Source: Escherichia phage BUCT632. From it: a DNA stretch of 64,000 nucleotides. Shown here piece after piece: positions 48,344 to 64,000 of this stretch. The position numbers were made by a program, and so were the translations under genes. Within the stretch, counting starts at the first letter, position 1. The number at the start of each line of letters is the position of its first letter. Below the pieces are notes generated by a model. That model was given only the letters and a program-made list of their open reading frames with translations, was not told the origin of the DNA and made no database searches. The DNA is taken from the sequence record PQ488502.1. One strand, written 5' to 3'.

Positions 48344-48963
48344 TGACTTTTAATGCACAACAACCTATTCAAGTAGTACCGGATCATGAACTGAACACAT
48401 GGGATTATAGCTTTAAAGATTTAACTGCTACTGTACAATTTAAATCTATGAAGCTAACATTTGCACATAATGACCTTAGAGCATGTAAAGATCTTGAGGA
48501 TAAGCTCGAAGATGCTCGTAAGATTTTTGGCAAGGCTCGCATCCCAGCTGATAATCTAATTAACGCATTAATCGATGCAGGGTACAAACTTGTGAAGACT
48601 GAGGTGAACCGCCCTAGTACTCCAGTGACTATTAGAGATCCGTGGCAGTCAGGGACAATCTCAATGCTGAATAACTCCGATAAAAGATTAATGTCGGATA
48701 TGCACAATGTTCCTTGTGGGGGTGTGGTAAGTAGTACGCAGTCATATAAGTTTGTGGAAGATTACGGCCCTTCTGTACAGTTGAAACATACTCAAGAAGC
48801 TTTTGAATCTGATATGCGAAGCGTAGCACCTGCGGATGTTGGAGTTTCTAGGAGTTCTGTTTGTACTATTCATTTTAATAATCCTGGTCAACATGGAAGT
48901 TTAGAAGATGCTATTATGGAGGCGTTGGGAGCTGCCATTAATGAAGATAATAGGGGTAGCTAA
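48343..48963 (+). CDS. hypothetical protein
   Basis: 206 aa ORF. Confidence 0.5.
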   Translation: MTFNAQQPIQVVPDHELNTWDYSFKDLTATVQFKSMKLTFAHNDLRACKDLEDKLEDARKIFGKARIPADNLINALIDAGYKLVKTEVNRPSTPVTIRDPWQSGTISMLNNSDKRLMSDMHNVPCGGVVSSTQSYKFVEDYGPSVQLKHTQEAFESDMRSVAPADVGVSRSSVCTIHFNNPGQHGSLEDAIMEALGAAINEDNRGS

Positions 48964-49041
48964 TCCTCTAATACATGAGCCTCTACGGAGGCTCTAAAAT
49001 AAAAAGAAGGTCATCCAGACCTTAAAAATGAGAGATAAATA

Positions 49042-49926
49042 ATGTATAACTTTAAAGATAAACTAAGACAAAATGCTGGCAAAGGAAAGGCAAAGGAGAA
49101 TAATAGTGTTCCTAATGCTAAAGTACTTCCGTTTCCTGAACTAACTCAAGAAGAAAAAGATAAACTAGCATTTATGTTCGATGCACTTATAGGATTAAGT
49201 GGACGACTGTACTCCACCCTTAGTCTTAATGAGAAACGTCTAGTAGAGATGTTTTGTAAACGTTACCCAGTTACTTCAAAGGGCAATGCCCATAAAGAAG
49301 GTGAAAAAGCATTCACAGTCTTAAAAATCAGTGCATATGCACATCGTTTCTTAGTTTATGGGTTACAGATGGAATACTTCACCATTCCACCATTTAAGTC
49401 ATTTCACATTTTTGAAGATGAACGAATGAATATTGATGATCTCTATGGAGATACGTACAAATATTCAGGGAGTCCATTCCATGATGCATTAAGAAGCTAT
49501 CCTACTAGTTATTTACCAGTTAGGGCATCACAAGGTAAAGCTAGCATCTTTGCGGTATACTCAGGATCTAAAGCATCTGATCTAGAAACTTATATATTTA
49601 AAGAGCGTAAATCTGTGCTTCCAGATGAAGCATTATATAATAATCCATTGCTTCCAGAAAAAGAACCAGAGAAAATTGATGTAACCCCACCAACCCCATC
49701 TGATTCTCCTTATCTGAAGTTTGAAAATCAAGTTGGATGGGTTCTAGAAATGGGTGTAGCCTCACCGCTTGCTGCAGCATTCATCAATAGGTATCTAGAA
49801 ATTCCTGACGAGTTCCACTCACGTTATAATACGAATATTCAGATTACAGATGAATTAATAGCCATTGCAAAAGGTACACCTACTGACACTGAGGCGTATC
49901 AAAAAGCATACCAAGAGTTACTATAA
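49042..49926 (+). CDS. hypothetical protein
   Basis: 294 aa ORF, last gene before repeat region. Confidence 0.5.
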   Translation: MYNFKDKLRQNAGKGKAKENNSVPNAKVLPFPELTQEEKDKLAFMFDALIGLSGRLYSTLSLNEKRLVEMFCKRYPVTSKGNAHKEGEKAFTVLKISAYAHRFLVYGLQMEYFTIPPFKSFHIFEDERMNIDDLYGDTYKYSGSPFHDALRSYPTSYLPVRASQGKASIFAVYSGSKASDLETYIFKERKSVLPDEALYNNPLLPEKEPEKIDVTPPTPSDSPYLKFENQVGWVLEMGVASPLAAAFINRYLEIPDEFHSRYNTNIQITDELIAIAKGTPTDTEAYQKAYQELL

Positions 49927-50339
49927 GATCCTGCATGTCTCGGTGCACAATACCTGTACCGAGACTCAAATACAAACTCTCGTTGACAGATAGCTAAATG
50001 TATGTTATCATAACTCTATGAGTTAATAGAATTAACCATTTAGAGTTGCCACACAGAAGGTGTGGTGGTTCAGTAATTTAAAATTACTAACTTGTAGCGG
50101 AGGATACGGAGCGACAGGACAAGTTAATAAGTAATTTAATATAAATTGCTAGAAACATCACGAGACCTTCTGGCGGGGCAAAGCTCTATATGAGAACCCT
50201 GGGGGGATCTTATATTTAAAATAAAAGTAAAACTTTTGACCACATAATTTACATTCAAGATGATACACCGGTTGCCGCTCATCTGCTAGGATGGCACAAC
50301 ACTTTCCTAAAAACTCCAGAGTTCTCACGAAATATCACA

Positions 50340-50425
50340 CTTCTAGTGGGCGGTTCTCCTAAGTTTCTAGGAACATATACTAGGCGGTTTAATACAGGGC
50401 GGTTATTGGGAGGGCGGTTATTTCT
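50340..50425. repeat. GGGCGGTT short direct repeats (4 copies)
   Basis: GGGCGGTT recurs four times within ~80 bp. Confidence 0.6.
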
Positions 50426-50463
50426 AGAAGGCATTTTTCCAAAACACATTTCCAGAAATTACT

Positions 50464-51063
50464 GTCGGATTTGCACACTGACATAAGTTTAAAAACTGGT
50501 CGGATTTGCACAATTGCCTAAGTTTTTAGGAACATATAATCTCCTGAAAATGGCAGCATTATTTCGGGCCGAAGGCCCATGATTGCCTGAGTTTTTAGAG
50601 CCACAGAAATTTTCACTTGTCAAGCTATTTTGCCCCATTTTGCTAATAAAATTTTACTTTATCTCACCCCAAGCCCAATTAACCCAAATCTTCTCAACTC
50701 TTCCCCAAAAACGCAGCAAATCAGGCGTTGCACGCCACCAATGCTGCTCCTCTCGCAGTTCCCCCTATTTTCTCTCGCTCTCTCATCTTATCCCCAAACC
50801 CACACAATCACACACCCTCTCATCGAAGTCACAAAAATCTTGTCGGATTCGCACATCTTAATCCTAGAAAAACCGTGTCGGATTTGCACATACCCCACAG
50901 GATTCGAACGCAGTTCGAGATTGCTGGAGTTTTTGGGAGACAGATTCGTCACTCTCACGAATTTATAAATTTTTCGGGTCGGATTTGCACACTACCAAAA
51001 ATTGTCGGATTTGCACATACACGCCCGCACGTAACACCCGTGGAGCAATGTCGGATTTGCACA
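50464..51063. repeat. dispersed 14-bp direct repeat GTCGGATTTGCACA (7 copies, one GTCGGATTCGCACA variant)
   Basis: copies at 50464, 50499, 50842, 50877, 50978, 51004, 51050. Confidence 0.85.
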
Positions 51064-51089
51064 AAAGCGCAGGGCAATTGCCCTGCGCT
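51064..51089. repeat. perfect palindrome GCGCAGGGCAATTGCCCTGCGC
   Basis: 22-bp perfect inverted repeat seen directly. Confidence 0.8.
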
Positions 51090-51300
51090 AAATGAGAATA
51101 AAAATAAGAATCATTCTCATTTAAAAAGCGGAATGAGAATGATAATAATTCGCATTTAGAAAGTGAAACGATTCTCACTTAGAAAGTGGAATGATTCTCA
51201 TTTAAAAAACGGAATGAAAATTATTCAGGAAGTGAAACGATTCTCATTTAGAAAGTGGAATGCGAATGATAATGATTCGCATTTAAGAATGGAAGTGAGA
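51090..51300. repeat. iteron-like tandem/inverted repeat array
   Basis: recurring AGAAAGTG(A/G)AA(C/T)G, TCATTTAAAAA(G/A)CGGAATGA and ATTCGCATTTA/AATGCGAAT units. Confidence 0.7.
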
Positions 51301-51316
51301 AACACTGCTATTTAAG

Positions 51317-51430
51317 TTATCCACAGACTTATCAACAGCACGATTTGACTTGACAAAATCCTAGCCATTTTGAAGCGTTATTAACAGACTTATCCACAGC
51401 TTATCCTACTGTATAAATATACAGTATTCC
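51317..51430. promoter_or_regulatory. DnaA-box cluster with palindrome (left copy)
   Basis: TTATCCACA at 51317 and 51390; palindrome TACTGTATAAATATACAGTA. Confidence 0.6.
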
Positions 51431-51569
51431 TATGCAGTGAATAATTCTAATATACCGCTAAAACGCTCTCAAAGATTGGAGGAGGCTTGAAAATTAGTTA
51501 GCCCGCTAACGATCACACAAGGCGACACGTAACACCCTAATCATTAGCAGGCTAACCATCGCGGGCGCT

Positions 51570-51592
51570 GTCAAATAAGAATGATTCTTATT
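51570..51592. repeat. perfect palindrome CAAATAAGAATGATTCTTATTTG
   Basis: 23-bp inverted repeat. Confidence 0.7.
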
Positions 51593-51744
51593 TGAGAATT
51601 GGGGGCACTTCCTGATAGTTGCGCCCCGTGATTATTATAGTAGTGGGCAATCGTTACGCTTTGCCCACTCCCGCCACTCATCTTGATGCCTAGACTTGCG
51701 ACGGCGTACTAAAAACCGTTTGTACCAGTGATTAAACCATCGTT

Positions 51745-51948
51745 TCATAAATCTTCCTCCGGTAGTCGATGCGTGATTTTTTCCTCTTCCCCGTAGGAAT
51801 CCACTAAATACTGATAATAACCATCGTGATCATAAATCACTTTATCATACTCGCCACGCTCGACCGCTTGTCTATTTTCCGGCGTATCGGGCACGTAAAA
51901 AACATCAACCATTGTGCTAGTTTTGGTCACAACAATTTTATTGCTCAT
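51745..51948 (-). CDS. hypothetical protein
   Basis: 67 aa ORF. Confidence 0.45.
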   Translation of the reverse strand: MSNKIVVTKTSTMVDVFYVPDTPENRQAVERGEYDKVIYDHDGYYQYLVDSYGEEEKITHRLPEEDL

Positions 51949-52000
51949 AATAACGCTCCGTTACTATATAATCTCGTTGCAATACACCAAAATTATATAG

Positions 52001-52216
52001 TTACTCATATTCTAGCTCGAAAATATCCTCACCATATAATTTGATTAAATCAACTAAATAAAACGCTGTGCCAGTATTATTATTTCTCCTTATAAATCTA
52101 TGATTCGCGTCTTTAAATACAGTGAATACATCACCTGTTTTACCTACTCCCCATAAATCCTGTGTTAATTTTACCCGTTTAACCTTTAGCAACATATTCC
52201 AAGTAATTTCATTCAT
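52001..52216 (-). CDS. hypothetical protein
   Basis: 71 aa ORF. Confidence 0.45.
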   Translation of the reverse strand: MNEITWNMLLKVKRVKLTQDLWGVGKTGDVFTVFKDANHRFIRRNNNTGTAFYLVDLIKLYGEDIFELEYE

Positions 52217-52572
52217 TGCGCCACCTTTCGAAACGCTGTTTCAATACTATCCGCAGTGGATTGAATATATGCGCCTTTCATTATCAGGCGCTCGGTGCAT
52301 ACTTTGCGGAAAATATTAATAAAATCATCTTCATTTTCTGCAATTAATGCTTCCCCCATAACTTGAACGTCACAAGATGCAAAGGTCAAAAATTGAAACG
52401 CTAGTTCACGGGCAACGACCGCATTGATTTTATAATGCGCCTTGCCCTCATAAATATTAATAACGCCCTTATAAGCTGGGGAAAGCTGATTTAAGTAGTT
52501 TGCTAGTAATGCCGGACGGCAATTAGCAACAAAACGATTACCTTCATAAATAACCATTTGACAACCTCCCAA
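52213..52572 (-). CDS. hypothetical protein
   Basis: 119 aa ORF, overlap with downstream gene. Confidence 0.5.
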   Translation of the reverse strand: MGGCQMVIYEGNRFVANCRPALLANYLNQLSPAYKGVINIYEGKAHYKINAVVARELAFQFLTFASCDVQVMGEALIAENEDDFINIFRKVCTERLIMKGAYIQSTADSIETAFRKVAQ

Positions 52573-52680
52573 TTATATAGCCGGATAATAACATAAAGAT
52601 CCCCAATGAAAGGGGATCATTCTTAAATAGGGTGGCTGTAAAACCGCCAACCATTGCAAGGATAATAACAATAACGCTTT

Positions 52681-52893
52681 TCATAGCACCCCACGAAACG
52701 CAGCGTAAAAGGTGGCAAAATGTTTAACCGTTTCAGCGATCACGTTGCCGCGCTTATCAAATTTCTTTTCTGTAACACGAAAAGCGTTTTTATTACGTGC
52801 TACATATTCGATTTTACAATCTTCCCGCTCGAACGTGTTAACATCCACCAGCTTAAATCCTTTCGAACGTGCAAGAGAAACGTTACGGATCAT
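52681..52893 (-). CDS. hypothetical protein
   Basis: 70 aa basic ORF. Confidence 0.45.
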   Translation of the reverse strand: MIRNVSLARSKGFKLVDVNTFEREDCKIEYVARNKNAFRVTEKKFDKRGNVIAETVKHFATFYAAFRGVL

Positions 52894-53091
52894 TTTTATT
52901 CTCCTTTACTAGTCATGCAGCCCAGCAGATAAGAAAACGCAGCAATGCCAGCGCCAATAATAACGGCGTGAACGCCAAAAGCTATTGCAAATAACGATAA
53001 AATAGCGCCCAAGATACCCGCCAGAATAGCTCGAAAAATAATCATTTTTATTCTCCTAGTCAGTGGGGGATATAATATCCCCCGTTACTAA

Positions 53092-53322
53092 TTACATTAA
53101 AACAATTTTTGCGGCTTGTTTTTTAGTGCAATGTTCAGCTTTCAGGGTATCCAGCAAAAAGCCCGCCGTTTGCTGATCGATTTTATCGGCGTTGTATAGT
53201 TCTTGGATGGTGTTATAAGTTTTAGCAATGCCGAACTCCTGCACCATTTCATGAATAACAACGCGATTGGACACCCAACCTTGAGCGGTAAACAGATGAG
53301 TAGCAGAAGAGTAAGCAACCAT
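53092..53322 (-). CDS. hypothetical protein
   Basis: 76 aa ORF. Confidence 0.45.
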   Translation of the reverse strand: MVAYSSATHLFTAQGWVSNRVVIHEMVQEFGIAKTYNTIQELYNADKIDQQTAGFLLDTLKAEHCTKKQAAKIVLM

Positions 53323-53426
53323 TTTAAGCCTCCAAATTTTTGGGAAATTTTCAATCCACCGTTTTGGTGTAAAGGCATTATAACAAAAAAGGCCACCATA
53401 AAAGGCGACCTTTACAAAACTTTACA

Positions 53427-53921
53427 TTAGACTACTTGTAAGGATTCAACATTGAAACATCGTTTCAATTCGTCATGCAAAACAGCGTATTCCTCCCATC
53501 GGGTACTATCAGGAATATAAACAAGCTGTTTTAATCGATTTGCGTATATTACCGCTTTGTTATCGACTATCTCGACGCCGCCATATTTAATAATTAATTT
53601 CATGACGGAATTAATAGGATCGCCGCCGTTTACATATGTGCCGGATTTACTTAGCTGATAATGATAAAGGCTTGCATATACGTTTTCATTTTCATACCAT
53701 TCGCCAGTTTCTTCGTCTTCATAGCCATCACTACCAAAACGAGAAGCATTATCAACAGCCATTTCCTGAGCAAAAGCGTCCAGATCCGTACCAGCAGGAA
53801 CAAAGTATTCCTCGGTGTTCCCTTCCCCGCAATAGCCAGTATGACAATCGACTAAAATGATCATATCATGTTTAGCCGTGCTTACTTCCCCTAGCGAGAA
53901 GCCGTATTTTTCCTCAGCCAT
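53427..53921 (-). CDS. hypothetical acidic protein
   Basis: 164 aa ORF. Confidence 0.5.
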   Translation of the reverse strand: MAEEKYGFSLGEVSTAKHDMIILVDCHTGYCGEGNTEEYFVPAGTDLDAFAQEMAVDNASRFGSDGYEDEETGEWYENENVYASLYHYQLSKSGTYVNGGDPINSVMKLIIKYGGVEIVDNKAVIYANRLKQLVYIPDSTRWEEYAVLHDELKRCFNVESLQVV

Positions 53922-53986
53922 TTATTAGCCTCCTATTAATTAACAAGGGAATAGTAAAGTGGGGAAATAATCCCCACTAAATATTA

Positions 53987-54997
53987 TTACTCGATTTCGG
54001 TGCTAGTGGTAAAAGTAGAAATATCAATACCTTTCACCATTTCATCAATCATTTCAGCGATGTTAAAACTTTGCACCATTTCCAGCATTGCCGCTTCCAT
54101 AGCCGCCCCCGCTACCGCTTTCGCCTTTTGGTTACTCGGTGCGTACTGGTCAACCGCCACACTCAGCAGGTTAGCAATCACTACTCGACCGATCGGCGTA
54201 TCAATATAACCTTTAATCATAAACGGTGCTTTTTTAGCCGCTACTTTCGTAATTTGAGTCAGTGCAATTTTACCCGCTTCCAGTTTTGCAGCATTTACAA
54301 CAGCGGATTTATTAGCGGCAACGATGTTAGCAATCTTGGTCATGGTGTTTTTTCCTTTGTTTTCAGTAGTTTGAGTATTAACGCTTTGAGTGTTAGAATT
54401 TACAGCATGGTTTTCTACGCTGTCAATAATCTGATCTTCATCTTTCCAGAAAGAAAAACCAGCGCTTTCTATATCCCCATCATAAATATACGGGTATAAC
54501 TCCCGTGGTAACAAAAAATTACCATCGCCATCAAAAGCCATTATACCAGTATATTGAGATCCGTCGTTATCCGGCTTATGCCATCCAGCGGGTAAATACT
54601 TCCAGATAACATCTAAAAATCCCTCAATGCTAGAAAGTCCATTTATCAGATCAAGCCCAATAAGCTCGAAACCATTTATATTAAATGATTGACGGCCTGA
54701 ATTGCTATGATACGCAACAATATTATTACCCTGCGTAATAATAAAATCGGCATCCGGCCCCGCTCCCCTGCCTGTAAAGATATGGCAATCCCGATTATAT
54801 AAAACTAGCGTTGCCCCTTGTTTATATAACGGCAAAAAACCATCCATATCATAAGCGTCATAATCATCAAAAAAGTTTTGATGAATAGTCTCAATCTTGT
54901 TAATAAAATGTTTAATGCTGGTTGACTTGCTACCGTCCAGCAGGTTGCGCAATGCACCCTTTAATACGGTGGCATTATCAGGTTTATACAGCCTCAT
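53987..54997 (-). CDS. hypothetical protein
   Basis: 336 aa ORF, largest gene of minus-strand cassette. Confidence 0.55.
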   Translation of the reverse strand: MRLYKPDNATVLKGALRNLLDGSKSTSIKHFINKIETIHQNFFDDYDAYDMDGFLPLYKQGATLVLYNRDCHIFTGRGAGPDADFIITQGNNIVAYHSNSGRQSFNINGFELIGLDLINGLSSIEGFLDVIWKYLPAGWHKPDNDGSQYTGIMAFDGDGNFLLPRELYPYIYDGDIESAGFSFWKDEDQIIDSVENHAVNSNTQSVNTQTTENKGKNTMTKIANIVAANKSAVVNAAKLEAGKIALTQITKVAAKKAPFMIKGYIDTPIGRVVIANLLSVAVDQYAPSNQKAKAVAGAAMEAAMLEMVQSFNIAEMIDEMVKGIDISTFTTSTEIE

Positions 54998-55261
54998 TTG
55001 TTCGGCCTCCTCGTTAATCGGTGAGTGAATGATATAGATATTTGTTCACTAGGGGCAAGAAAAAAGAAAATGTTTTTTATTCCTTGCCTAGCGCCTATTT
55101 TTATGCTAACCGCGCAGCGGTGTAATAAAGAGCAAAAAACGGCGAAGCCACCAGGCCGCAGCATTGAGGCTTTACTTTACTATTACCTTGCAGCGTTTAG
55201 CTCGTTAGAATGCGATTTAGGCCGCTTAAAATTGATTGCAGTTGTTAACACTACCTTTTTA

Positions 55262-55375
55262 CCCTGTATATTTATACAGTGGAATAACCTGTGGATAAGT
55301 CTGTGCAAAAGTCCTTATATCGCCGCCTATCGTGTCAAGTTATTTCGTGCTGTGGATAACGTTGTGGATAACTTA
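55262..55375. promoter_or_regulatory. DnaA-box cluster with palindrome (right, inverted copy)
   Basis: palindrome CTGTATATTTATACAG; TGTGGATAA at 55290, 55351, 55364; ~45 bp is the reverse complement of 51386-51430 at ~90% identity. Confidence 0.6.
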
Positions 55376-55622
55376 AATGATAGTGGTTCTCACTTAGGCC
55401 GATAGTTTCTTATAGTTATTATTTCTCATTAATTTATAAGTATATTATATATTATGAAATAGTTAGTTGGCTAATGAGATTTTTCGTGATTAATAGTCTG
55501 CTAATAGTTTACTCTGTTACAGTCCACCAGCATGATTATCATCCTAGCAATTATTATCCTGCTATCTTTCCGATACATACTAGCAAACAAAAGTCAATTA
55601 ATTTATTTCATAAAATAAGTAG

Positions 55623-55657
55623 TTATCCACTGGAAAATAAAAGTCAAGTGGATAACT
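55623..55657. promoter_or_regulatory. convergent DnaA-box pair
   Basis: TTATCCAC (55623) and GTGGATAAC (55649) in inverted orientation. Confidence 0.5.
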
Positions 55658-56102
55658 AGGAAAATTTCATTTTTGCTTTTGGGGATAAGTTATCAACAAG
55701 GCTAGAATGCGCCTAAAACGCCCTAGAACGCGATGAAGTTTTTAGCCATCCCATCATAAGGGGATAGGCCGTTTATCGCTGCCACGAGCTTTTTGGATTT
55801 TGTCAAGTAGGGCAAAGCAAATATAAATGAAAAAATTACTTGCCTATCTGCTTTATTTTGTGGTATTCGCGCGCCCGTTTCTTTTAATTTTAGGCCATCG
55901 CCGCACGGTGTCCGGTGAGTTTTGTCTTTACGTTTCTTTACAAAAATAAGGTTGCGCCATTTTCGGGAATCCCCTATTATTTATCACGTAGGGCGGCAAT
56001 GACGAACTACACGGCGGGAAGTTTACCGCCACGCTCTTTAAAAATTGGGTACATCTTAAAGCCTATCGGCGGTAAACTTATACATTATAAGGAATCGACG
56101 AT

Positions 56103-56306
56103 ATGAAACAAACGCTTTTGATCACTGGCAAGCCTATTAAGGCACTAGATAGCAAAACAAAAAATTTGTTGACAGTAGCTCAAAGATCAGTAAAATATAG
56201 ATTCACGCAGTACAAGAAAGGCCGCCAGCAAGGTTTAGAAATGATCTGGCGCAATATTATGATTGACCTGAAGGAAAATCATAAAAAATTGCAAAAAATT
56301 GTTTGA
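56103..56306 (+). CDS. hypothetical basic protein
   Basis: 67 aa ORF. Confidence 0.4.
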   Translation: MKQTLLITGKPIKALDSKTKNLLTVAQRSVKYRFTQYKKGRQQGLEMIWRNIMIDLKENHKKLQKIV

Positions 56307-56535
56307 CACCCTAGCCGATAGGCTTTAAGATGTACTCAGTTCGATAAGAGCGATAACTTGATAAAATTTGACGGTCGGTGCTTACCATAATGCATCCCGC
56401 CCCCTAACGGGATATAGCGGCCTACGTGGAGTTCTTTAAATTGATTATAGCGGCGGGAGGATTGTTACTTATTACCTGCTAGTATTTTCTAGTAGGTAAT
56501 GCGGAACAATCCCCAAATAACTAGGAGTTTATACT

Positions 56536-56787
56536 ATGCAAAACGTTATTACCGCGCCGAAAGTTGGTCAATCCGTCTTCATTCCTTTCGTTACTAAAAC
56601 GGATGAATTAACCGGAAAAGCCGAACGTATTAAAGGTGCGGCGCTTATGCCGTTCGATACAATCGACGCGGTATATGCTGAAAATGAACGCAGTAACAAC
56701 GGCAAGCCGATTTATAACGTTCGCGTTAAATCCGGCGACGTTGTAAAGGTTGTTCAACGCAACGAAAAATGGGAAGCTGTATTGTAA
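56536..56787 (+). CDS. hypothetical protein
   Basis: 83 aa ORF with RBS AGGAG. Confidence 0.5.
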   Translation: MQNVITAPKVGQSVFIPFVTKTDELTGKAERIKGAALMPFDTIDAVYAENERSNNGKPIYNVRVKSGDVVKVVQRNEKWEAVL

Positions 56788-56888
56788 TGTAGTGTTAACT
56801 TTATATTCCCCTGAAATATGGGGAATATATGGATTAACATTTAGTTAATCATTAAATCCCTTAAATTAAACTAATAGGAGTTTTTACC

Positions 56889-57296
56889 ATGACTAACGCA
56901 AAAACCGCAAAATTCGCATGGAACGAAGAAAACACTCAGAAAGCTGTTTCTATGTATCAGCAGTTAATCAACGAAAACGGTTTAGATTTCGCAAATAGCG
57001 ACGGTTTAAAAGAGATTGCAAAAGCAGTAGGCGCGGCTTCTCCCGTATCCGTTCGGTCAAAATTGACCAGTGCAAAAGCCTATCAAAAAAGCGATAAGCC
57101 GCGTAAAGTTGGCGGCGGTAGCTCTGTGCGTAAAGCTCACTATGTGCGCGTTATCGCTAAACATGCTATCGATTCCGGCATTATCAAAGACGCCGATGAT
57201 CTGGCAAGTCTGGAAAGTGCAAAACTTGAAACGCTGGACGCAGTAGCGCAATTGTTAGGCGTTGCTGATGAAGTAAAACAAGCCGCAGGCGAATAA
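56889..57296 (+). CDS. hypothetical protein
   Basis: 135 aa ORF followed by hairpin. Confidence 0.5.
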   Translation: MTNAKTAKFAWNEENTQKAVSMYQQLINENGLDFANSDGLKEIAKAVGAASPVSVRSKLTSAKAYQKSDKPRKVGGGSSVRKAHYVRVIAKHAIDSGIIKDADDLASLESAKLETLDAVAQLLGVADEVKQAAGE

Positions 57297-57386
57297 TAGT
57301 TATACCTTGCCCCCTTCTAGTGAGGGGGCAATAATATAACTGTTTAGCGATAGTTATTTTCTTCCCTTAAATCAGGAGTTTTAAAA

Positions 57387-57584
57387 ATGATTTTCTTCCC
57401 TACTGAATCTTTGATTCTAGGCTTGTTTATTATGGCGGCCTCATTATTGTTCGCTTATTTTCAAAATGATTTAGATTCGTATTATTTTAAACGTAAATCT
57501 AAGTTAGCAAAACGTTTAGGTCTGCTTTGTTTTATCGCTGCCGTTGCTTGTGGTGTTAGTTCTAGCCTAGTGCCTTTAAATTAA
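57387..57584 (+). CDS. hypothetical membrane protein
   Basis: 65 aa, two hydrophobic segments. Confidence 0.45.
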   Translation: MIFFPTESLILGLFIMAASLLFAYFQNDLDSYYFKRKSKLAKRLGLLCFIAAVACGVSSSLVPLN

Positions 57585-57674
57585 TGTTGCAAATTATAAC
57601 GCCTATTATTTGAGGCGTTATATTTGGCAATATTGCCATTATTAATCTAATCCCTTTAATGGAGTTTTATTACT

Positions 57675-59345
57675 ATGATTATTTCCGCAGAAAAACAAAC
57701 CGTTATCCTGAAAATGGCCGCTGACTTTAATTTCTATGGTAAACGTCTGCGCGCTACTAAACTGGAGGTCTGCGACGATATATCAAAAGCAGTCTACGAT
57801 ACAACGAAACATTCTACCGCCATTTGTGATTGGCTGGAAGCAAACAAACCAGCTAAACCGAAAGCGGCAAAAGTAGCAAAAGCCATTAAAAACGACGAGC
57901 GCCCCGAAGCGGCTGGGATTGTTTCTAGTACGGTTGAGCAATGGGAAGTAAAACAGGGTAAACGTTTTATTATTACGTCGATTCAGAATAATACTTTCCC
58001 GCATAAAAACTTTTTAGCAAGTCTGGAAAAATTCGCTGAATATATCGGTGCCGATTTGCTTGTTTCTAAGTATATTTATAATAAAAACGGCTTCCAAAAT
58101 GGAGAAGGTGCAGACGGAATCAAATATGATTCTGCGTTTGATAAATATATTTGCAGCAAAAACGTGTTTTTAAATAACCGCCGTTTTGCTTTCATGGCTG
58201 AAATTAATGTTTTGCCTACCGCAGATTATCCGCTTTCTGGATTCGCAGAAACTGCAACGGCTTTAAATATTGAAGGTCTGGCAATTGGTCACGCTAAAAT
58301 TACCGCTGAAAGCGTACCAGCTTTAAAAGGTGAAGTAGTGCGCCGTATGTACTCAACCGGAACGGCAACCCTCAAAAACTACATTCAGCAGAAAGCAGGA
58401 CAAAAGGCCGAGGCGCTGCATAACTTCGGTGCGCTGATTGTTGAGTTCGACGAGGACGGGGAATTTTTTGTTCGCCAGCTTGAAACGATGGACGAAAGCG
58501 GGGTATTTTATGATCTGAATGTGTGCGCTACTCCTGCCGGATGCTATGAGACATCGGGGCATGTTTTAGGCTTGCAGTATGGTGATATTCATGCAGAAAA
58601 ACTAGATGAGGCTTGCGCTCAAGCGTCTTGGGGTCATGGTGATACTTATGGGCTTGTGGATATTCTCAAACCGAAATATCAGTTTGTACATGATGTGCAT
58701 GATTTTACATCCCGCAATCATCATAACCGCGCTTCTGGTGTATTCCTAGCGAAACAGTACGCCGCCGGACGTGATAAGGTTATTGATGATCTTATCGATA
58801 CGGGGCGCGTGCTGGAATCAATGGAGCGTGATTTTTCTCAAACAATCATTGTTGAATCAAATCACGATTTGGCGTTATCCCGTTGGCTGGATGATCGAAA
58901 TGCTAACATCAAAGACGATCCAGCAAACGCCGAACTATATCACAGCCTAAACGCTGCAATCTATGCGGCTATTGCAAAGCAGGACGATACTTTCAACGTG
59001 CTAGATTATGCCTTGCGTAAGGTAGCAGGTTGTGAATTTAACGCCATTTTCCTGACCACTGACCAATCATTTAAAATTGCAGGCATTGAATGCGGCGTAC
59101 ACGGTCACAACGGCATTAACGGCAGCCGTGGCAACCCGAAACAATTTAAGAAATTGGGCAAGTTAAACACGGGGCATACGCATACCGCCAGCATTTACGG
59201 TGGCGTTTATACCGCTGGCGTTGCTGGTAGTCTGGATATGGGTTACAACGTTGGCGCGTCAAGCTGGACGCAAACGCATTTAATTACATACGCCAACGGC
59301 CAGCGCACTTTGATTGACTTTAAAAACGGCAAGTTTTTCGCATAA
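57675..59345 (+). CDS. A1: A1-like pre-early protein with metallophosphatase-like motifs
   Basis: 556 aa, same length as T5 A1 (from memory); motifs GDIHAE, GHGD, GHNG, GHTH. Confidence 0.55.
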   Translation: MIISAEKQTVILKMAADFNFYGKRLRATKLEVCDDISKAVYDTTKHSTAICDWLEANKPAKPKAAKVAKAIKNDERPEAAGIVSSTVEQWEVKQGKRFIITSIQNNTFPHKNFLASLEKFAEYIGADLLVSKYIYNKNGFQNGEGADGIKYDSAFDKYICSKNVFLNNRRFAFMAEINVLPTADYPLSGFAETATALNIEGLAIGHAKITAESVPALKGEVVRRMYSTGTATLKNYIQQKAGQKAEALHNFGALIVEFDEDGEFFVRQLETMDESGVFYDLNVCATPAGCYETSGHVLGLQYGDIHAEKLDEACAQASWGHGDTYGLVDILKPKYQFVHDVHDFTSRNHHNRASGVFLAKQYAAGRDKVIDDLIDTGRVLESMERDFSQTIIVESNHDLALSRWLDDRNANIKDDPANAELYHSLNAAIYAAIAKQDDTFNVLDYALRKVAGCEFNAIFLTTDQSFKIAGIECGVHGHNGINGSRGNPKQFKKLGKLNTGHTHTASIYGGVYTAGVAGSLDMGYNVGASSWTQTHLITYANGQRTLIDFKNGKFFA

Positions 59346-59356
59346 TTAAATTTATA

Positions 59357-59385
59357 AGCTGGAAATATTTCCAGCTTATACCCTT
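59357..59385 (+). terminator. putative terminator hairpin
   Basis: AGCTGGAAA-TAT-TTCCAGCT hairpin, weak T tail. Confidence 0.4.
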
Positions 59386-59410
59386 ATTAAATTAATTGGA
59401 GTTTATAACT

Positions 59411-59803
59411 ATGAAAAAGCAAAATATCCCATTCGATCGCGCTCAATCCTCAATCGTTCTGGTTTATTCTAATGGTGAACGTTACCACGTCGAGGCGGGG
59501 CACGTTGTTGATGATTTAATCGAGTTTAACGAGGCGTTACAGATCACGACTTTCGCCTATACGCAAGGCCGCGCAAGTAGTCACATCAAGGCCGCTGGCG
59601 TTTATGTTGACACGGTGAAACAAGAAACGATTATCATCGACGCCGTAAAATCCGGCCTAGCCTTTGCAGTTGTCGCGCCTTGCCCCGCTTGCCTAGATGA
59701 TCAGCTAACGAGTGCAAAGGTATATACCTGCGCGGGTATTCGTTCCAGTGTATCAGGTGAGGATGTTAGTTTTATCGCTGATGCGTTGGCTTATGGTCTT
59801 TAA
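59411..59803 (+). CDS. A2: A2-like pre-early protein
   Basis: ~130 aa ORF downstream of A1-like gene; assignment by size and synteny only. Confidence 0.4.
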   Translation: MKKQNIPFDRAQSSIVLVYSNGERYHVEAGHVVDDLIEFNEALQITTFAYTQGRASSHIKAAGVYVDTVKQETIIIDAVKSGLAFAVVAPCPACLDDQLTSAKVYTCAGIRSSVSGEDVSFIADALAYGL

Positions 59804-59882
59804 TAGTTAATTTATTATTACCCGCTTATAAATAGCGGGTAATGCTGAATTAATCTAATCCCTTAAATGGAGAACGTAACAA

Positions 59883-60617
59883 ATGAATAAAGCTATTATG
59901 AATATTTCCCGCAGCTTCCCGCATATTTCCCGCGTCATGATTTGGGATTTAGACGGCACTATCATTAATTCTTTCCATCGTGTAGCGCCTTGCTTTGATA
60001 GTGAGGGCAATTTAGATTTAAATAAGTATAAAAATGAAGCGTGTAAACATCATTTAATAATGCAGGATTCTTTATTGCCATTGGTTGAATACATGCGCCA
60101 ATGTATGAATGACGCAAATACTTTAAATATTATTTGTACCGCTCGACTAATGAGCAAGTCGGACTATTATTATTTGCGTAAACAAGGTCTGCGCGGTCGT
60201 GGTAATAGTAATATCCGCGTGTTTTCCCGCGATACACTGCATAAATATTTTAAAGCTGATAAGGTTAGCGAGATATACCACAGCAAAGACGCAGTTTATA
60301 AATCTTATTATTTTGAATTATTTAAACAGCTATATCCGAACGCTGATTTTACGATGATTGATGATCATAAAGGCGTATTATCAGCGGCGGCATCATACGG
60401 ATTTAAAACGCTGGACGCGCAAGCCGTTAACGATATTCTATCAATCGGGGTGGCATTGATAGGTGAAACCTTTATCGATGAATCGCTCGATGATGATAAT
60501 GATTATCAGTTCCTAGCCGATCGTTTGAAATTATGTTGGGAAGGTATGACCGAGGAAGAACGCGCAGAATATAGTTGCAGCCCGCAACAATACATGGAGA
60601 AATTAAAAGTTGCATAA
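59883..60617 (+). CDS. dmp: 5'-deoxyribonucleotidase-like HAD-family protein
   Basis: 244 aa; HAD motif I WDLDGTI; size and position next to A1/A2 candidates. Confidence 0.55.
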   Translation: MNKAIMNISRSFPHISRVMIWDLDGTIINSFHRVAPCFDSEGNLDLNKYKNEACKHHLIMQDSLLPLVEYMRQCMNDANTLNIICTARLMSKSDYYYLRKQGLRGRGNSNIRVFSRDTLHKYFKADKVSEIYHSKDAVYKSYYFELFKQLYPNADFTMIDDHKGVLSAAASYGFKTLDAQAVNDILSIGVALIGETFIDESLDDDNDYQFLADRLKLCWEGMTEEERAEYSCSPQQYMEKLKVA

Positions 60618-60768
60618 TAATTAAAGTTGAAATAGTCACGGTGTGTAACGATAACATGCCGTGACTATTAGCTTGCTAAGTACCGGGCGGTAATGAGACT
60701 TATTCTCATCTCGGGGGGCACTGGACACACCTCCATGTGTAATCTTATGAAATTTGGCAAAAGTCAAA

Positions 60769-61014
60769 TTAGCGCATAGAAGGGTCATCAAACCTGTGTT
60801 CTGGTCTGAACTCACGGAATCTCTTCCGCGACGCCCGAGATCCATCCGACCACTCCCGATCAAACTCCGCACGTTTCTCGTCAAACTTCCGCTCCCTTTC
60901 CGCAATCTCCCGCGCCACTTCCGCAATATATTTACGATGCTTGTTGATTGCCGCAGTCGTCCCGAAAACTCCCGCGAGTACCCCTATAATAAAAGCAATT
61001 ACAATACTAAACAT
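60769..61014 (-). CDS. hypothetical membrane-anchored protein
   Basis: N-terminal TM helix then Arg/Glu-rich region. Confidence 0.45.
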   Translation of the reverse strand: MFSIVIAFIIGVLAGVFGTTAAINKHRKYIAEVAREIAERERKFDEKRAEFDREWSDGSRASRKRFREFRPEHRFDDPSMR

Positions 61015-61423
61015 TATTTATATTCCCGTAGCTTACGTTCAATACGAGCTAAGTGGTTATCCAAGACACATTGCCCTAGAATTACCACAACTAATAAAAC
61101 AATAATTATTACCTCCATTAAAGCCACCCCGCCATAGCTGCTAACCAAAAGCCTACGAAGATTAGGAATAATACAAAACCAAATCCGTAAATATTAATCC
61201 ACGCTTCATACACTTCTCCGCGTCTGCTCTTTCTTTTGTTTGGCATATCTTTCACTCTCCAATAAATATGGTATTTTAAAGTATTTTATAGTTTGTACAT
61301 AACCAACCATGCTCGTGACTTCCTAGAAGGACTTCTACTTTTCTCACATAGTGGTTTCTGCTAGTACACCATCCAAGAAATAAAAAATTTAGTTTACTTG
61401 GATGTCTTTTTGCTTTATACTAA

Positions 61424-61690
61424 TTACAGGTAGTTAGATTGCTCTAGTTTAAATTTACAATCACCATATTTAAGGTCAAACTGACTGAGATCCCACCACC
61501 CAAACTTAGTACGGAGCTGTACTACTGGGAATCGATCTCCCTTAATACGAACTTTTTGAACCTTGAGGCCGTAATGTTCTTCTCCCGCACCACCAAAAGA
61601 TTTTACAAATCCAGTACAAAATGGTTTGGGAGCAGGTGCACAACCAGATAACATAACTGCGGCAACTAGTGCAATCACAAACTTTTTCAT
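61424..61690 (-). CDS. llp: Llp-like lipoprotein (receptor-blocking lipoprotein candidate)
   Basis: signal peptide + lipobox MLSGC; small size; divergent from receptor-binding protein gene. Confidence 0.55.
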   Translation of the reverse strand: MKKFVIALVAAVMLSGCAPAPKPFCTGFVKSFGGAGEEHYGLKVQKVRIKGDRFPVVQLRTKFGWWDLSQFDLKYGDCKFKLEQSNYL

Positions 61691-61775
61691 ATTTATCTCT
61701 CCATTTCTAATTTATGAGTATATTATAGCAAAATAGAGAGATGAAAGCAAATACATTTTTATAATAGGAGATTAT

Positions 61776-63533
61776 ATGGGTTTTTTCGCTGGAAAATATA
61801 GCGATGGTAAGACCGTACTATCTTTAAATACTGAATCTGGTGGTGACATTAATCGTCACTATAGTCCAAATGCCAATAGTATTTTTCATAGTGATATGCC
61901 ATTTGTCCTAGTTGATGGTACTTATGAGTCTGGGTTAGGTGATGCCGGTAATGGGTTTTTTGTATGTCAGATGCCCTCTGACATAATAAATATTAAATCC
62001 AATGACCCCGGTAGAGTTATATTAACTGCTATTGAGATTAATGGTACTCACAGAGCTTTTCTTAATGGTACTCAGAGTAAGGTGGGTCAAACTATAGTTG
62101 CCACTCAAGCAGATCCTTTTAGATCTTTTGCTAGTGTTTCCCAGACTAGTGGATTTGCATTTGGTAATAGCCTGGCATCTGGTACATATAACTATAATCC
62201 ATCTATAGGACATGAAGAATCTATTTCTAGGAATGGTACAGGGGGTACTACCTTACATAGTACGTATCATGGTATAGTTAGGCCAGGTGCAGGAGCTCCA
62301 GTAGGTATTACTGTTGCAGAAGCTTTTGCACAGTTAGGATTCCCTACTAATAGTAGTACAGTACCTATAGATAGTAATAACCAATATTACTGGGACCCAG
62401 GATGGATGTCTCCTTTAGGATCAGCACACAGAGGGCACGATTGGTTTTATGTTTGTAACTCTAACATACGTGGGTATGGTGGGGTAAGACAAGGTCTTCC
62501 TGGTAATGTAAATACTATGTATCATGATGGGGGTAATAGATTTGTTTGTAGAGGTTCTACAACTAATTTAGCTAATCAATCTGGTAACGCTACAATATTA
62601 CAGGATTGGTATAACATAACCCCTACTAAAGTTATTTGGTACGTTTTGAATTTAAGATACTCAAATGGTAATATGGGTATTTCTGGTAATCCTTTTACTG
62701 GCTCAGATATTCTTATCTCTCCCTCTAATTTTACTATAAAAGGGGTTAGTTTACCGAATACTGGGTATAAGTTTATCAACCAAAATGCTTTTGGTAACTT
62801 AGGTTATAGACCAGATATGGAATATATTGGAAATAACGCAGCGTACACCGGGGCCTTTGGGGATACCACTGCAAGATGTGAACTTGTAGGTTCTAGTAAC
62901 GGGAGTTTATGGTCTCCTGTAGACTATGGAGGGGCTAAGTCTCAAATTAGTATTTACAAATTCGGAGCTGGTAAGCAATGGTATGTAAATTCTAATGATA
63001 ATACTATCGGTAATGAACACGGGGTTGTTTGGGGGCCTTCAGCAGTTCCACTACGACTTTTTAGCGGAAATGTTGGTAGTTCTTACATGGGGGATGATAT
63101 TACTCCCAGCTATCCAGGAACTGGAGATAGATACGTTGGTTTATCAACTATTGGGCTAGGTATACCGGGTGGCAATGCTACTGTAATTCTTACCACTGAA
63201 GTTATATCAGGTAATCTTAACTGTGCAGGTGTTCCTGCTAATACATGGAATAACGGTGTGTTTCAAGTGCAGGGAAGAAGAGCATATAGTTATAGTAATG
63301 GAGACGCGATATTCCACCAGATTTTAACACTACCAGTAGGGTATTTAGTACCTTTTCATACTACATCTGCTTTTAGATACACACCTAACAATGCCCTAAG
63401 TAGAAATAGTTTTATATACACTGCTAAAAATCTGGGGAACGGAAATGTAGAGTTAGGGGTAGTTATGCACGTAAGTTTAGGTAGTGCAGTTTTTCTACCT
63501 AGATTAAGAGTAACAGTTCAACGCCTTACCTAA
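61776..63533 (+). CDS. putative receptor-binding tail protein (pb5-like)
   Basis: 585 aa Gly/Asn/Ser/Thr-rich protein divergent from Llp-like gene; assignment by context. Confidence 0.45.
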
Positions 63534-63543
63534 AGGAGGAAAT

Positions 63544-64000
63544 ATGGCAAATGATGTATTAGTACCAGATCTTATGTCCCCTGAAGGGATGGATGTGATT
63601 GAAGCTTATTTACAGTGCGGTAGCGATGTGCCTTCTGCCGCACGTAGTCTTGGAATGTCCGAAATTGCTTTCCGAGATATTATGAATCGTAGTGAAGTTA
63701 AGAATTACTTAAACGATATTTTTATGGAAAGTGGTTTCCGTAACAGGGATCGTTTATTTGGTGTTCTGGATGAAGTTATTAAGCGTAAGCTGGAGGAACT
63801 GGAAGAAACTGGCATGGGTTCTGACCAAGATATTATGGATATTCTCTGGAAAGCACATAAAATGAAAATGGAAGAAATGAAAATGATGGTAGAATTGGAG
63901 AAAGTGAAGGCAGCAGCCCGTACTCCAGCTAACCAGACCAATATCCAGAATAATATTATTGCTGGAGCTGGGGATCAAAACTACATGGACTTAATTACTT
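63544..64000 (+). CDS. putative DNA-binding late protein, possibly terminase small subunit (3' end beyond window)
   Basis: open frame from ATG 63544 to window edge after GGAGGA RBS; N-terminal HTH-like segment. Confidence 0.35.

What the first reader, a model, noticed from the sequence alone, without database searches (positions are those of the whole stretch)
57675..61690. Candidate pre-early gene set (A1/A2/dmp-like) next to the Llp-receptor-binding module: probable collapsed terminal repeat and genome end
A 556-aa protein with metallophosphatase-like His/Asp motifs, a ~130-aa protein and a 244-aa HAD-family protein match (from memory) the sizes and order of T5 pre-early A1, A2 and dmp. Immediately beyond lie a divergent Llp-like lipoprotein and a receptor-binding protein, which in T5 mark the end of the late region. 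Together with the repeat/DnaA region at 50-55 kb this suggests the window spans a ~11 kb terminal-repeat equivalent, with the physical terminus near 60.6-61.4 kb.
Basis: partly seen in the sequence, partly recalled or inferred. Interest (0 to 1): 0.55.

Follow-up and report, generated by a model that had tools for sequence, protein, structure and literature searches.

The report
T5-type terminal repeat, single collapsed copy
This stretch is the well-known first-injected "pre-early" end region of a T5-like phage (A2, A1 and dmp genes), sitting beside the receptor-binding genes and present in the window as one copy of what should be a 10.1 kb repeat at both ends of the virus DNA; it is ordinary for this phage family.

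Summary
The window comes from a T5-like phage (Tequintavirus), about 93% identical in DNA to phages L6jm, MM-1 and Kenya-K37.

**ORFs.** All the reported ORFs exist.
- 57675-59345 is A1: 95.9% identical to T5 A1 over 556/556 aa, with a metallophosphoesterase fold.
- 59883-60617 is Dmp: 93.4% identical to T5 Dmp, HAD fold.
- The ~130-aa ORF between them is T5.002, not A2. The real A2 (99.3% identical) lies upstream at 56889-57296.

**Receptor module.** The lipoprotein and the receptor-binding protein form the BtuB-type module: the lipoprotein is 98.9% identical to SPC35's, and the RBP is 72% and 69% identical to those of SPC35 and EPS7.

**Terminal repeat.** T5's physical ends map to window positions 50598 and 60727. 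That bounds a 10,130-bp terminal-repeat equivalent containing the injection-stop repeats and paired DnaA boxes. The window runs colinearly past both borders, into early genes on one side and late genes on the other. It therefore holds a single, collapsed copy of the repeat, which is also the topology of the replicative circle.

**Verdict.** The physical ends cannot be proven without reads. Everything matches published T5 biology, so this is already known and of low interest.

The parts
50598..60727 (.). Terminal-repeat equivalent (10,130 bp), a single copy. Position 50598 corresponds to the physical right end of T5 and MM-1. Position 60727 corresponds to T5's physical left end, which enters the cell first.
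   Evidence: Blastn and MAFFT mapping of T5, MM-1, K37, SPC35 and chee24. Only one copy in the window.
50457..51600 (.). Injection-stop-signal region (T5 'Repeat Region 3'). It holds GTCGGATTTGCACA direct repeats (50457-51070, straddling the repeat border), 23/35-nt tandem repeats (51099-51305), and the IRD'spacerIRC' arm at 51293-51424 with paired DnaA/DnaA* boxes (TTATCCACA-GAC-TTATCAACA and TTATTAACA-GAC-TTATCCACA).
   Evidence: Colinear with T5 9370-10409. Matches the description in bioRxiv 10.1101/866236.
55264..55395 (.). IRCspacerIRD arm (T5 'Repeat Region 2'), the inverted partner of 51293-51424. It carries four consensus DnaA boxes on the minus strand.
   Evidence: 132-nt inverted repeat, 77% complementary. 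DnaA boxes at 55290, 55302, 55351 and 55363.
53987..54997 (-). T5.011 homologue (336 aa, DUF7566), a pre-early gene on the opposite strand.
   Evidence: 89% identity to T5.011. Pfam DUF7566, E = 1.2e-114.
56103..56306 (+). T5.008 homologue (67 aa). By promoter position it corresponds to hdi, the host division inhibitor.
   Evidence: 88% identity. The T5 annotation read together with the Fig. 1 legend of bioRxiv 10.64898/2026.04.02.716235; the hdi assignment is an inference.
56536..56787 (+). T5.007 homologue (83 aa, DUF7177).
56889..57296 (+). The true A2 (T5.006), a 135-aa DNA-binding protein required for second-step transfer.
   Evidence: 99.3% identity over 135/135 aa. phrog_1725, E = 3.4e-52.
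57387..57584 (+). T5.005 homologue, a 65-aa membrane protein.
   Evidence: 95.4% identity. phrog_4820.
57675..59345 (+). A1 (T5.004), 556 aa, a metallophosphoesterase-fold protein. In T5 it is essential and sufficient for host DNA degradation and is required for second-step transfer.
59353..59380 (.). 28-nt perfect palindrome in the 29-nt gap that replaces T5.003.
59411..59803 (+). T5.002 homologue (130 aa from the ATG; the ORF listing starts at a TTG at 59396). Function unknown; dispensable in T5.
   Evidence: 85.7% identity to T5.002. phrog_4576, E = 6e-81. No meaningful similarity to A2. Dispensability.
59883..60617 (+). dmp (T5.001), 244 aa, a HAD-fold deoxynucleoside-5'-monophosphatase.
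   Evidence: 93.4% identity. Invariant HAD motifs I-IV. AF2 model with pLDDT 83. All top Foldseek hits are HAD phosphatases.
60624..60674 (+). Strong hairpin (14-15 bp perfect core at 60633-60667) between the dmp stop codon and the left-terminus equivalent.
   Evidence: z = -4.3. T5 and MM-1 carry a hairpin of unrelated sequence at the same place.
60769..61014 (-). T5.162 homologue (81-aa membrane protein), the first gene of the unique late end outside the repeat.
   Evidence: 85% identity. phrog_6447.
61121..61246 (-). T5.159 homologue (42 aa).
   Evidence: 76% identity.
61424..61690 (-). Receptor-blocking lipoprotein (functional analogue of Llp), of the BtuB-phage type.
   Evidence: Lipobox, LPAM_1. 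phrog_1119 'Cor superinfection exclusion', E = 1.8e-26. 98.9% identity to the SPC35 protein, 69% to EPS7, and only 30% with E = 0.003 to T5 Llp.
61776..63533 (+). Receptor-binding tail protein (pb5/Hrs family), BtuB cluster.
   Evidence: phrog_4815, E = 6e-274. 98% identity to MM-1, 72% to SPC35, 69% to EPS7 and 29.8% to T5 pb5. BtuB use by SPC35 and EPS7 from PMC8624392.
63544..64000 (+). Small terminase subunit, cut off by the end of the window.
   Evidence: 100% identity to T5.156 over 152 aa.

Best explanation
The finding is the left part of the long direct terminal repeat of a T5-like (Tequintavirus) phage, present in this sequence as one copy (50598-60727).

In the virion the DNA should be linear, with this 10.1 kb block at both ends. 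An assembler, or the phage's own replicative circle or concatemer, merges the two copies. The repeat then sits between the late end (terS, RBP, lipoprotein, small membrane ORFs) and the early region.

Mechanism, inferred from T5:
1. The end corresponding to 60727 enters the cell first.
2. Transfer pauses at the repeat- and DnaA-box-rich injection stop signal near 51.3 kb.
3. Host RNA polymerase transcribes A2, A1, T5.002 and dmp towards that end.
4. A1, a two-metal phosphoesterase of the Mre11/PolD-DP1 fold, drives destruction of the host chromosome.
5. Dmp, a HAD phosphatase, converts the released dNMPs to nucleosides.
6. A1 and A2 together allow the remaining DNA to enter.

The adjacent divergent gene pair encodes the tail-tip receptor-binding protein and a lipoprotein that blocks the same receptor (predicted to be BtuB) after infection.

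What is shown here: gene identities, folds, repeat architecture, the border positions by homology, and the single-copy topology. What is inferred: the physical duplication at the virion ends, and all biochemical activities.
For: - The window is 90-94% identical in DNA to more than 100 T5-like phage records.
- T5 proteins map at 86-100% identity, in T5 order.
- The T5 annotation shows the same dmp...A1...A2...iss layout in its left repeat and the same oad/llp/159-162 | right-repeat junction.
- The last base of the T5 and MM-1 records aligns to window 50598, within a fully conserved 28-nt block.
- T5's first base aligns to 60727. The annotated repeat borders of MM-1 and SPC35 map to 60726, that of K37 to 60711 and that of chee24 to 60633.
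- Both flanks are colinear with the unique T5 and MM-1 sequence, and there is a single copy in the window.
- The 132-nt inverted repeat with paired DnaA boxes 3 bp apart is present, as described for all T5-like phages.
- A1 has a metallophosphoesterase fold and Dmp a HAD fold.
- Davison 2020 states that many GenBank T5-like records misplace dmp/A1/A2 because assemblers mishandle the long repeats, and that replicating T5 circles are one repeat shorter than the virion DNA.
- In one search, records of 116-120 kb hold two matching places and records of 102-112 kb hold one.
Against: - No reads or virion DNA are available, so neither the duplication nor the exact ends are demonstrated for this phage.
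- Annotated repeat borders in relatives differ by up to 94 bp at this end (60633-60727) and by 29 bp at the other (K37), so the terminus position is only as good as those annotations.
- No record in the phage collection is more than 99% identical across the window, so the source's own deposition format is unknown.
- Pfam, NCBIfam and PDB sequence searches did not place A1 or Dmp in any family at significant E-values. The fold assignments therefore rest on conserved motifs and predicted structures.
Confidence: 0.93

Rival explanations
1. The single-copy arrangement is biologically real in the sampled DNA rather than an assembler artefact. On this view the sequence derives from the intracellular replicative circle or concatemer, in which one repeat copy separates the late and early regions.
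For: Electron microscopy of replicating T5 showed circles of genome length minus one terminal repeat (Davison 2020, section 4.4). The junction sequence would be identical to what is seen.
Against: Phage genomes are normally sequenced from purified virions. Collapsed repeats from short-read assembly are a documented, common outcome for T5-like phages. The two scenarios give the same sequence and cannot be separated here.
Confidence: 0.1
2. This phage has lost the terminal duplication and packages a genome without long direct repeats (for example circularly permuted headful packaging), so 50598-60727 is simply unique sequence.
For: Nothing in the window itself proves duplication. Only one copy is visible.
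Against: The small terminase is 100% identical to T5's over 152 aa. Both border sequences are conserved with phages whose termini are established or annotated. The iss and pre-early system only makes sense at a fixed end that enters first. All characterised relatives carry 8-13 kb repeats.
Confidence: 0.03
3. The adjacency of dmp to the lipoprotein/RBP module is a chimeric misassembly that joins unrelated genome regions.
For: Davison notes that misassembled T5-like records place dmp/A1/A2 in the late region.
Against: The same adjacency is authentic in T5, MM-1, K37, SPC35 and chee24 at the start of the right terminal repeat, and it aligns base for base across the junction. The other border is likewise the authentic junction between the left repeat and the early region.
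Confidence: 0.02
4. One reading: the ~130-aa ORF between A1 and dmp (59396-59803) is A2.
For: Its size (135 aa from the TTG start) equals that of T5 A2. There is also a weak 34-residue local similarity to A2 (23.5 bits).
Against: It is 85.7% identical to T5.002 and belongs to phrog_4576. T5 A2 maps at 99.3% identity to 56889-57296, which is phrog_1725. The T5 order is dmp-002-003-A1-005-A2.
Confidence: 0.01

Closest known systems
Bacteriophage T5 terminal repeat / first-step-transfer region (NC_005859, positions 1-10219 and 111532-121750)
   Same: The pre-early genes are the same and in the same order (dmp, 002, A1, 005, A2, 007, 008, 009, 011-015, 017) at 65-100% protein identity. The iss repeat architecture with paired DnaA boxes is the same. 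The border sequences are conserved at both ends. The neighbours on both sides are the same: T5.018/019 on one side and T5.162-159, llp and oad on the other.
   Different: The block is 10,130 bp against 10,219 bp in T5. T5.003, the HNH gene hegG (T5.010) and T5.016 are absent. There is an extra 164-aa ORF (53427-53921) shared with MM-1. The hairpin beside the left end has an unrelated sequence. The block is present once in the window rather than at two record ends.
Receptor-binding / receptor-blocking module of BtuB-dependent T5-like phages (BF23 hrs/llp, SPC35, EPS7)
   Same: A divergently transcribed lipoprotein gene and RBP gene lie directly upstream of terS. The lipoprotein is 98.9% identical to SPC35's. 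The RBP is 72% identical to SPC35's and 69% to EPS7's, and both phages use BtuB.
   Different: This RBP allele (585 aa) forms its own tight cluster: 95-99% identity in 95 records, 99% to Shigella phage SSP1. That cluster is about 28-31% divergent from the experimentally characterised SPC35 and EPS7 proteins. Its receptor has not been tested here. I did not compare it directly with BF23 Hrs or with the FepA-type H8 protein.
Calcineurin-like metallophosphoesterase nucleases (archaeal PolD DP1 proofreading exonuclease, Mre11, SbcD)
   Different: Sequence identity is only 9-17%. No Pfam Metallophos hit was found. A1 has a large N-terminal region (residues 1-290) with no counterpart in these enzymes. 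At the date of the 2026 preprint no nuclease activity had been demonstrated in vitro.
HAD-superfamily nucleotide phosphatases (T4 Pnkp phosphatase domain, AphA, cytosolic deoxyribonucleotidase)
   Same: Dmp has all four HAD motifs and a matching Rossmannoid core. PHROGs groups it with 'polynucleotide kinase'.
   Different: The structural match is only moderate (TM 0.4-0.5, 10-20% identity). Pfam HAD_2 is far below threshold (E = 0.1). Dmp also has a C-terminal helical extension (about residues 180-244) modelled with low confidence.

Membership tests
T5-type long direct terminal repeat / FST region | Carries dmp, A1 and A2 in that order from the left end, transcribed towards the end. | tested here: met
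   dmp at 59883-60617, A1 at 57675-59345 and A2 at 56889-57296, all on the + strand and pointing to the terminus equivalent at 60727. The order matches.
T5-type long direct terminal repeat / FST region | Non-coding injection-stop region with IRD'spacerIRC' / IRCspacerIRD inverted repeats and paired DnaA boxes 3 bp apart. | tested here: met
   arms at 51293-51424 and 55264-55395, with six consensus and two variant boxes in pairs, as described.
T5-type long direct terminal repeat / FST region | Borders coincide with the genome termini of characterised relatives. | tested here: met
   the right ends of T5 and MM-1 map to 50598. T5's left end maps to 60727 and the MM-1 and SPC35 borders to 60726. 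K37 (60711) and chee24 (60633) deviate.
T5-type long direct terminal repeat / FST region | The block is physically present at both ends of the virion DNA. | not testable with these tools
   Needs read depth and read ends, or end-mapping of virion DNA. The window holds one copy.
A1 protein (T5.004, phrog_1745) | Full-length orthology to T5 A1. | tested here: met
   95.9% identity over 556/556 aa. phrog_1745, E = 5.4e-244.
Calcineurin-like metallophosphoesterase superfamily (for A1) | Conserved metal-ligand motifs (DxH, GDxxD-like, GNH[DE]-like, H, GH, GHxH). | tested here: met
   G303 D304 H306, H339 D340 D343, N396 H397 D398, H476 G477 and G500 H501 H503 are invariant in 45 sequences.
Calcineurin-like metallophosphoesterase superfamily (for A1) | Four-layer alpha/beta sandwich fold. 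| tested here: met
Calcineurin-like metallophosphoesterase superfamily (for A1) | Match to the curated sequence profiles (Pfam Metallophos and relatives). | tested here: not met
   No Pfam or NCBIfam hit even at E <= 10 or E <= 1, and no PDB sequence hit. A1 is therefore a sequence-divergent member, recognisable by motifs and fold only.
Calcineurin-like metallophosphoesterase superfamily (for A1) | Metal-dependent phosphoester or nuclease activity. | not testable with these tools
   The literature shows A1 necessary and sufficient for host DNA degradation in vivo. Activity in vitro was still untested.
   The ORF is T5.002 (85.7% identity, phrog_4576). A2 maps to 56889-57296.
Dmp (T5.001) / HAD superfamily | Orthology to T5 deoxynucleoside-5'-monophosphatase. 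| tested here: met
   93.4% identity over 244/244 aa. All homologues carry the same precomputed Pfam family, PF26880.
Dmp (T5.001) / HAD superfamily | HAD motifs I-IV (DxDxT, T/S, K, DD) and a Rossmannoid fold. | tested here: met
   D22/D24/T26, T86, K140 and D160/D161 are invariant. The top Foldseek hits are HAD phosphatases, E = 1.6e-4 and TM 0.4-0.5. Pfam HAD_2 reaches only E = 0.1.
Llp-type receptor-blocking lipoprotein | Lipoprotein signal with lipobox, small size, divergently transcribed next to the RBP gene. | tested here: met
   LPAM_1, E = 5e-5, LSGC lipobox. 88 aa on the minus strand, 85 bp from the RBP start. phrog_1119.
Llp-type receptor-blocking lipoprotein | Sequence homology to T5 Llp itself. 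| tested here: inconclusive
   No tblastn hit at 1e-3. Pairwise 30% identity over 67 aa with E = 0.003 in a 7-sequence database, largely signal peptide. The literature calls the T5 and BF23 Llp proteins non-homologous.
pb5/Hrs receptor-binding protein family, BtuB cluster | Full-length homology to pb5-family RBPs, closest to BtuB binders, encoded directly upstream of terS. | tested here: met
   phrog_4815, E = 6e-274. 72% identity to SPC35, 69% to EPS7 and 29.8% to T5 pb5. terS starts 11 bp downstream. Actual receptor use was not tested.

The most novel reading that the evidence does not exclude
The left-end border may not be the T5-equivalent position. This phage, like K37 and chee24, carries a hairpin cassette of unrelated sequence between dmp and the terminus. 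It may therefore be cut by terminase at a different site (chee24's annotated border maps to the start of the hairpin, 60633). That would imply two alternative terminal-hairpin alleles that specify the position of the genome end, or protect it, in Tequintaviruses.
Probability: 0.05. Interest if true: 0.3.

Novelty: already known. Interest (0 to 1): 0.08.

Why it matters
The main value is for annotation. The genome this window comes from should be re-oriented to start at the position equivalent to 60727 (reverse strand) and be given a second copy of 50598-60727 at the other end. A2 should be assigned to 56889-57296, not to the ORF next to dmp. The predicted host receptor is BtuB, not FhuA. Biologically the region adds one more member to a very well sampled group: several hundred T5-like records match it. 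A1 is already recognised as the hallmark of the Demerecviridae, and its metallophosphoesterase fold has already been proposed in the literature.

Tried and rejected
- **Sequence-profile searches.** Pfam, NCBIfam and PDB sequence searches for A1, T5.002, A2 and Dmp gave nothing significant. The fold claims were therefore tested with alignments of homologues, AlphaFold models and structure searches.
- **Source record.** I looked for a near-identical source record to see how it was deposited. None exceeds about 95-99% identity locally, and the best hits differ between segments, so the genome is a mosaic.
- **DnaA boxes.** Consensus DnaA boxes are not enriched over the window as a whole (12 found against 8.2 expected). 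Only their clustering and pairing in the two inverted-repeat arms is meaningful.
- **T5.002 versus A2.** The weak local similarity between them (23.5 bits) was judged not meaningful.
- **Deviating borders.** The K37 and chee24 repeat borders deviate from the T5/MM-1/SPC35 consensus. I treated them as annotation differences, not as evidence for other termini, although this is not excluded.
- **Cut-site motif.** I compared the two border sequences by eye for a shared terminase cut-site motif and found none.
- **Hairpin after dmp.** It lacks a T-run, and the terminator scan did not call it an intrinsic terminator.

Full report
**What is in the sequence.** A megablast of 55500-64000 against 50,697 phage records found 493 matching records. 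Nearly all are T5-like phages of Salmonella, Escherichia and Klebsiella. The best (L6jm, Kenya-K37, MM-1, PK7, IME178) cover 98-100% of the query at 92-94% identity. The window is therefore part of a Tequintavirus-type genome (Demerecviridae, Markadamsvirinae).

**Gene identities.** I translated the annotated T5 reference genes (NC_005859) and searched them against the window with tblastn.

| T5 gene | Window coordinates | Identity |
|---|---|---|
| A1 (T5.004) | 57675-59345 | 95.9% over 556/556 aa |
| dmp (T5.001) | 59883-60617 | 93.4% over 244/244 aa |
| T5.002 | the ~130-aa ORF between A1 and dmp | 85.7% |
| A2 (T5.006) | 56889-57296 | 99.3% |

PHROGs agrees: A1 is phrog_1745, the middle ORF phrog_4576 (unknown function), A2 phrog_1725 ('DNA binding protein') and Dmp phrog_415. 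The T5 order from the left end is dmp-002-003-A1-005-A2-007-008-009. Davison likewise gives 'dmp, A1 and A2, in this order'. Read on the + strand, the window is the reverse of this: 009, 008, 007, A2, 005, A1, 002, dmp. The A2 call is wrong, and the real A2 lies just outside the finding's coordinates. T5.003, hegG and T5.016 have no counterpart. These are among the four least conserved pre-early genes according to the 2026 preprint.

**The two enzymatic claims.** Pfam, NCBIfam and PDB sequence searches gave no significant hit for A1 or Dmp, so I tested both claims through homologues and predicted structures.

- *Dmp.* In 29 homologues D22-x-D24-x-T26, T86, K140 and D160-D161 are invariant, which are HAD motifs I-IV. 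The model (pLDDT 83) hits only HAD phosphatases at the top of a Foldseek PDB search (E = 1.6e-4, TM 0.4-0.5). These include the T4 Pnkp phosphatase domain, AphA and cytosolic deoxyribonucleotidase.

**The neighbours.**
- The 88-aa protein has a lipoprotein signal (LPAM_1) and belongs to phrog_1119, 'Cor superinfection exclusion'.
- It is 98.9% identical to the receptor-blocking protein of SPC35 and 69% to that of EPS7. To T5 Llp it shows only 30% identity over 67 residues (E = 0.003 in a seven-sequence database), mostly signal peptide.
- The 585-aa protein is a full-length pb5-family receptor-binding protein: phrog_4815, 29.8% identical to T5 pb5, 72% to SPC35, 69% to EPS7 and 98-99% to MM-1 and SSP1.
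- SPC35, EPS7 and BF23 use BtuB. RBP clusters predict the receptor in this subfamily.
- BtuB is therefore the likely receptor here, although this allele has not itself been tested.
- The small terminase starts 11 bp after the RBP gene and is 100% identical to T5's over the 152 residues inside the window.
- T5 has the same layout: terS, oad (pb5), llp transcribed divergently, four small membrane ORFs, then the right terminal repeat beginning with dmp.

**Is this a terminal repeat, and is it collapsed?** I fetched both ends of MM-1 (left and right repeats annotated, 10,407 bp), the right end of Kenya-K37 (repeat of 9,846 bp), both ends of T5 (10,219 bp), and the right-repeat junctions of SPC35 and chee24.

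- *Right end.* In local blastn and MAFFT alignments, the last base of the T5 and MM-1 records aligns to window 50598. It lies at the start of a block (GAGCCACAGAAATTTTCACTTGTCAAGC) identical to T5.
- *Left end.* T5's first bases (TGTCCACTG...) align, as reverse complement, to window 60719-60727 (CACTGGACA). The sequence immediately outside (CACCTCCATGTGTAATCTTATGAAATTT) is conserved with the unique sequence preceding T5's right repeat.
- *Other annotations.* Annotated borders map to 60727 (T5), 60726 (MM-1, SPC35), 60711 (K37) and 60633 (chee24).
- *Size.* The repeat equivalent is 50598-60727, or 10,130 bp.
- *Flanks.* The window continues colinearly on both sides. Below 50598 it matches the sequence that follows the left repeat in T5 and MM-1 (T5.018, T5.019 and on through a cluster of 22 tRNA genes at 20-33 kb). 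Above 60727 it matches the sequence that precedes the right repeat (T5.162, T5.159, lipoprotein, RBP, terS).
- *Copy number.* A self-comparison finds no second copy in the window.

In a linear record carrying both repeats, nothing precedes the left copy and nothing follows the right copy. One copy flanked by both unique regions can only be a merged representation. Database practice fits this: records of 116-120 kb contain two matching places and records of 102-112 kb contain one. Davison notes that assemblers mishandle these repeats and misplace dmp/A1/A2. He also reports that replicating T5 circles are one repeat shorter than the virion DNA. The same junction therefore also exists biologically inside the cell.

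**The repeat/DnaA region.**
- A 132-nt inverted repeat has arms at 51293-51424 and 55264-55395 (77% complementary).
- GTCGGATTTGCACA direct repeats lie at 50457-51070.
- 23/35-nt tandem repeats lie at 51099-51305.
- Six of the window's twelve consensus DnaA boxes sit in the two arms. Together with two variant boxes they form pairs 3 bp apart.

This is exactly the IRD'spacerIRC' / IRCspacerIRD arrangement described for the T5 injection stop signal. The whole-window count of DnaA boxes is not enriched (12 against 8.2 expected); only the clustering is significant.

**How it works.** This is inferred from T5 and not tested here.
1. The end equivalent to 60727 enters first.
2. Transfer halts at the iss after about 8% of the genome.
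3. The host polymerase transcribes the pre-early genes.
4. A1 causes host DNA breakdown and shut-off.
5. Dmp dephosphorylates dNMPs.
6. A1 and A2 permit second-step transfer.
7. The lipoprotein then blocks the receptor that the RBP recognises.

**Verdict.** Nothing departs from the published T5 architecture, so the feature is already known and of low interest.

Minor items noted:
- A strong hairpin between dmp and the terminus differs in sequence from the T5 one at the same site.
- A 28-nt perfect palindrome replaces T5.003.

Noticed in passing
window 60624-60674: A strong hairpin (14-15 bp perfect core, z = -4.3) lies about 15 nt after the dmp stop codon and about 60 nt inside the left-terminus equivalent. 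T5 and MM-1 have an 18-20 bp perfect hairpin of unrelated sequence at the same position, whereas K37 and chee24 share the window's version. It has no T-run, so it is not a classical intrinsic terminator. chee24's annotated repeat border maps to the start of the hairpin (60633).
   Followed up: partly
window 59353-59380: A 28-nt perfect palindrome (TATAAGCTGGAAATATTTCCAGCTTATA) occupies the 29-nt gap between A1 and T5.002. T5 and MM-1 carry gene T5.003 (about 280-310 bp) at this position. It may be the footprint of a deletion or a terminator-like element.
   Followed up: partly
window 53427-53921 (-): A 164-aa ORF inside the terminal repeat has no T5 counterpart but is shared with MM-1 (record positions 7101-7595). 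Conversely, hegG (T5.010) and T5.016 are absent. This part of the repeat is the known variable segment.
   Followed up: partly
window 20290-32781 (+): A cluster of 22 tRNA genes found by ARAGORN. Rfam also lists 22, two of them at other positions (20290-20361 and 24574-24648). This is typical of the T5 early region and confirms that the low-coordinate side of the repeat is early DNA.
   Followed up: no
window 61776-63533: The RBP allele forms a tight cluster (95-99% identity in 95 records, 99% to Shigella phage SSP1). It is distinct from the larger EPS7/SPC35-type cluster (60-80% identity, 293 records). In contrast, the adjacent lipoprotein is 98.9% identical to SPC35's. This suggests recombination inside the receptor module between the lipoprotein and RBP genes.
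   Followed up: partly
window 46000-64000 versus the phage collection: The best-matching records differ between neighbouring segments: Cit2, T5_ev212 and EC148 for 46-54 kb; L6jm, K37 and MM-1 for 55.5-64 kb; HMD-P5 and KPP2018 for 60.3-61.5 kb. No record exceeds about 95-99% identity locally. The genome is a mosaic that is not present as such in the August 2025 collection.
   Followed up: no
window 50457-50597: The GTCGGATTTGCACA repeat family of the iss region extends about 140 bp beyond the repeat border into unique early DNA. Davison noted the same for T5, where Repeat Region 3 overruns the left terminal repeat by 270 bp.
   Followed up: no
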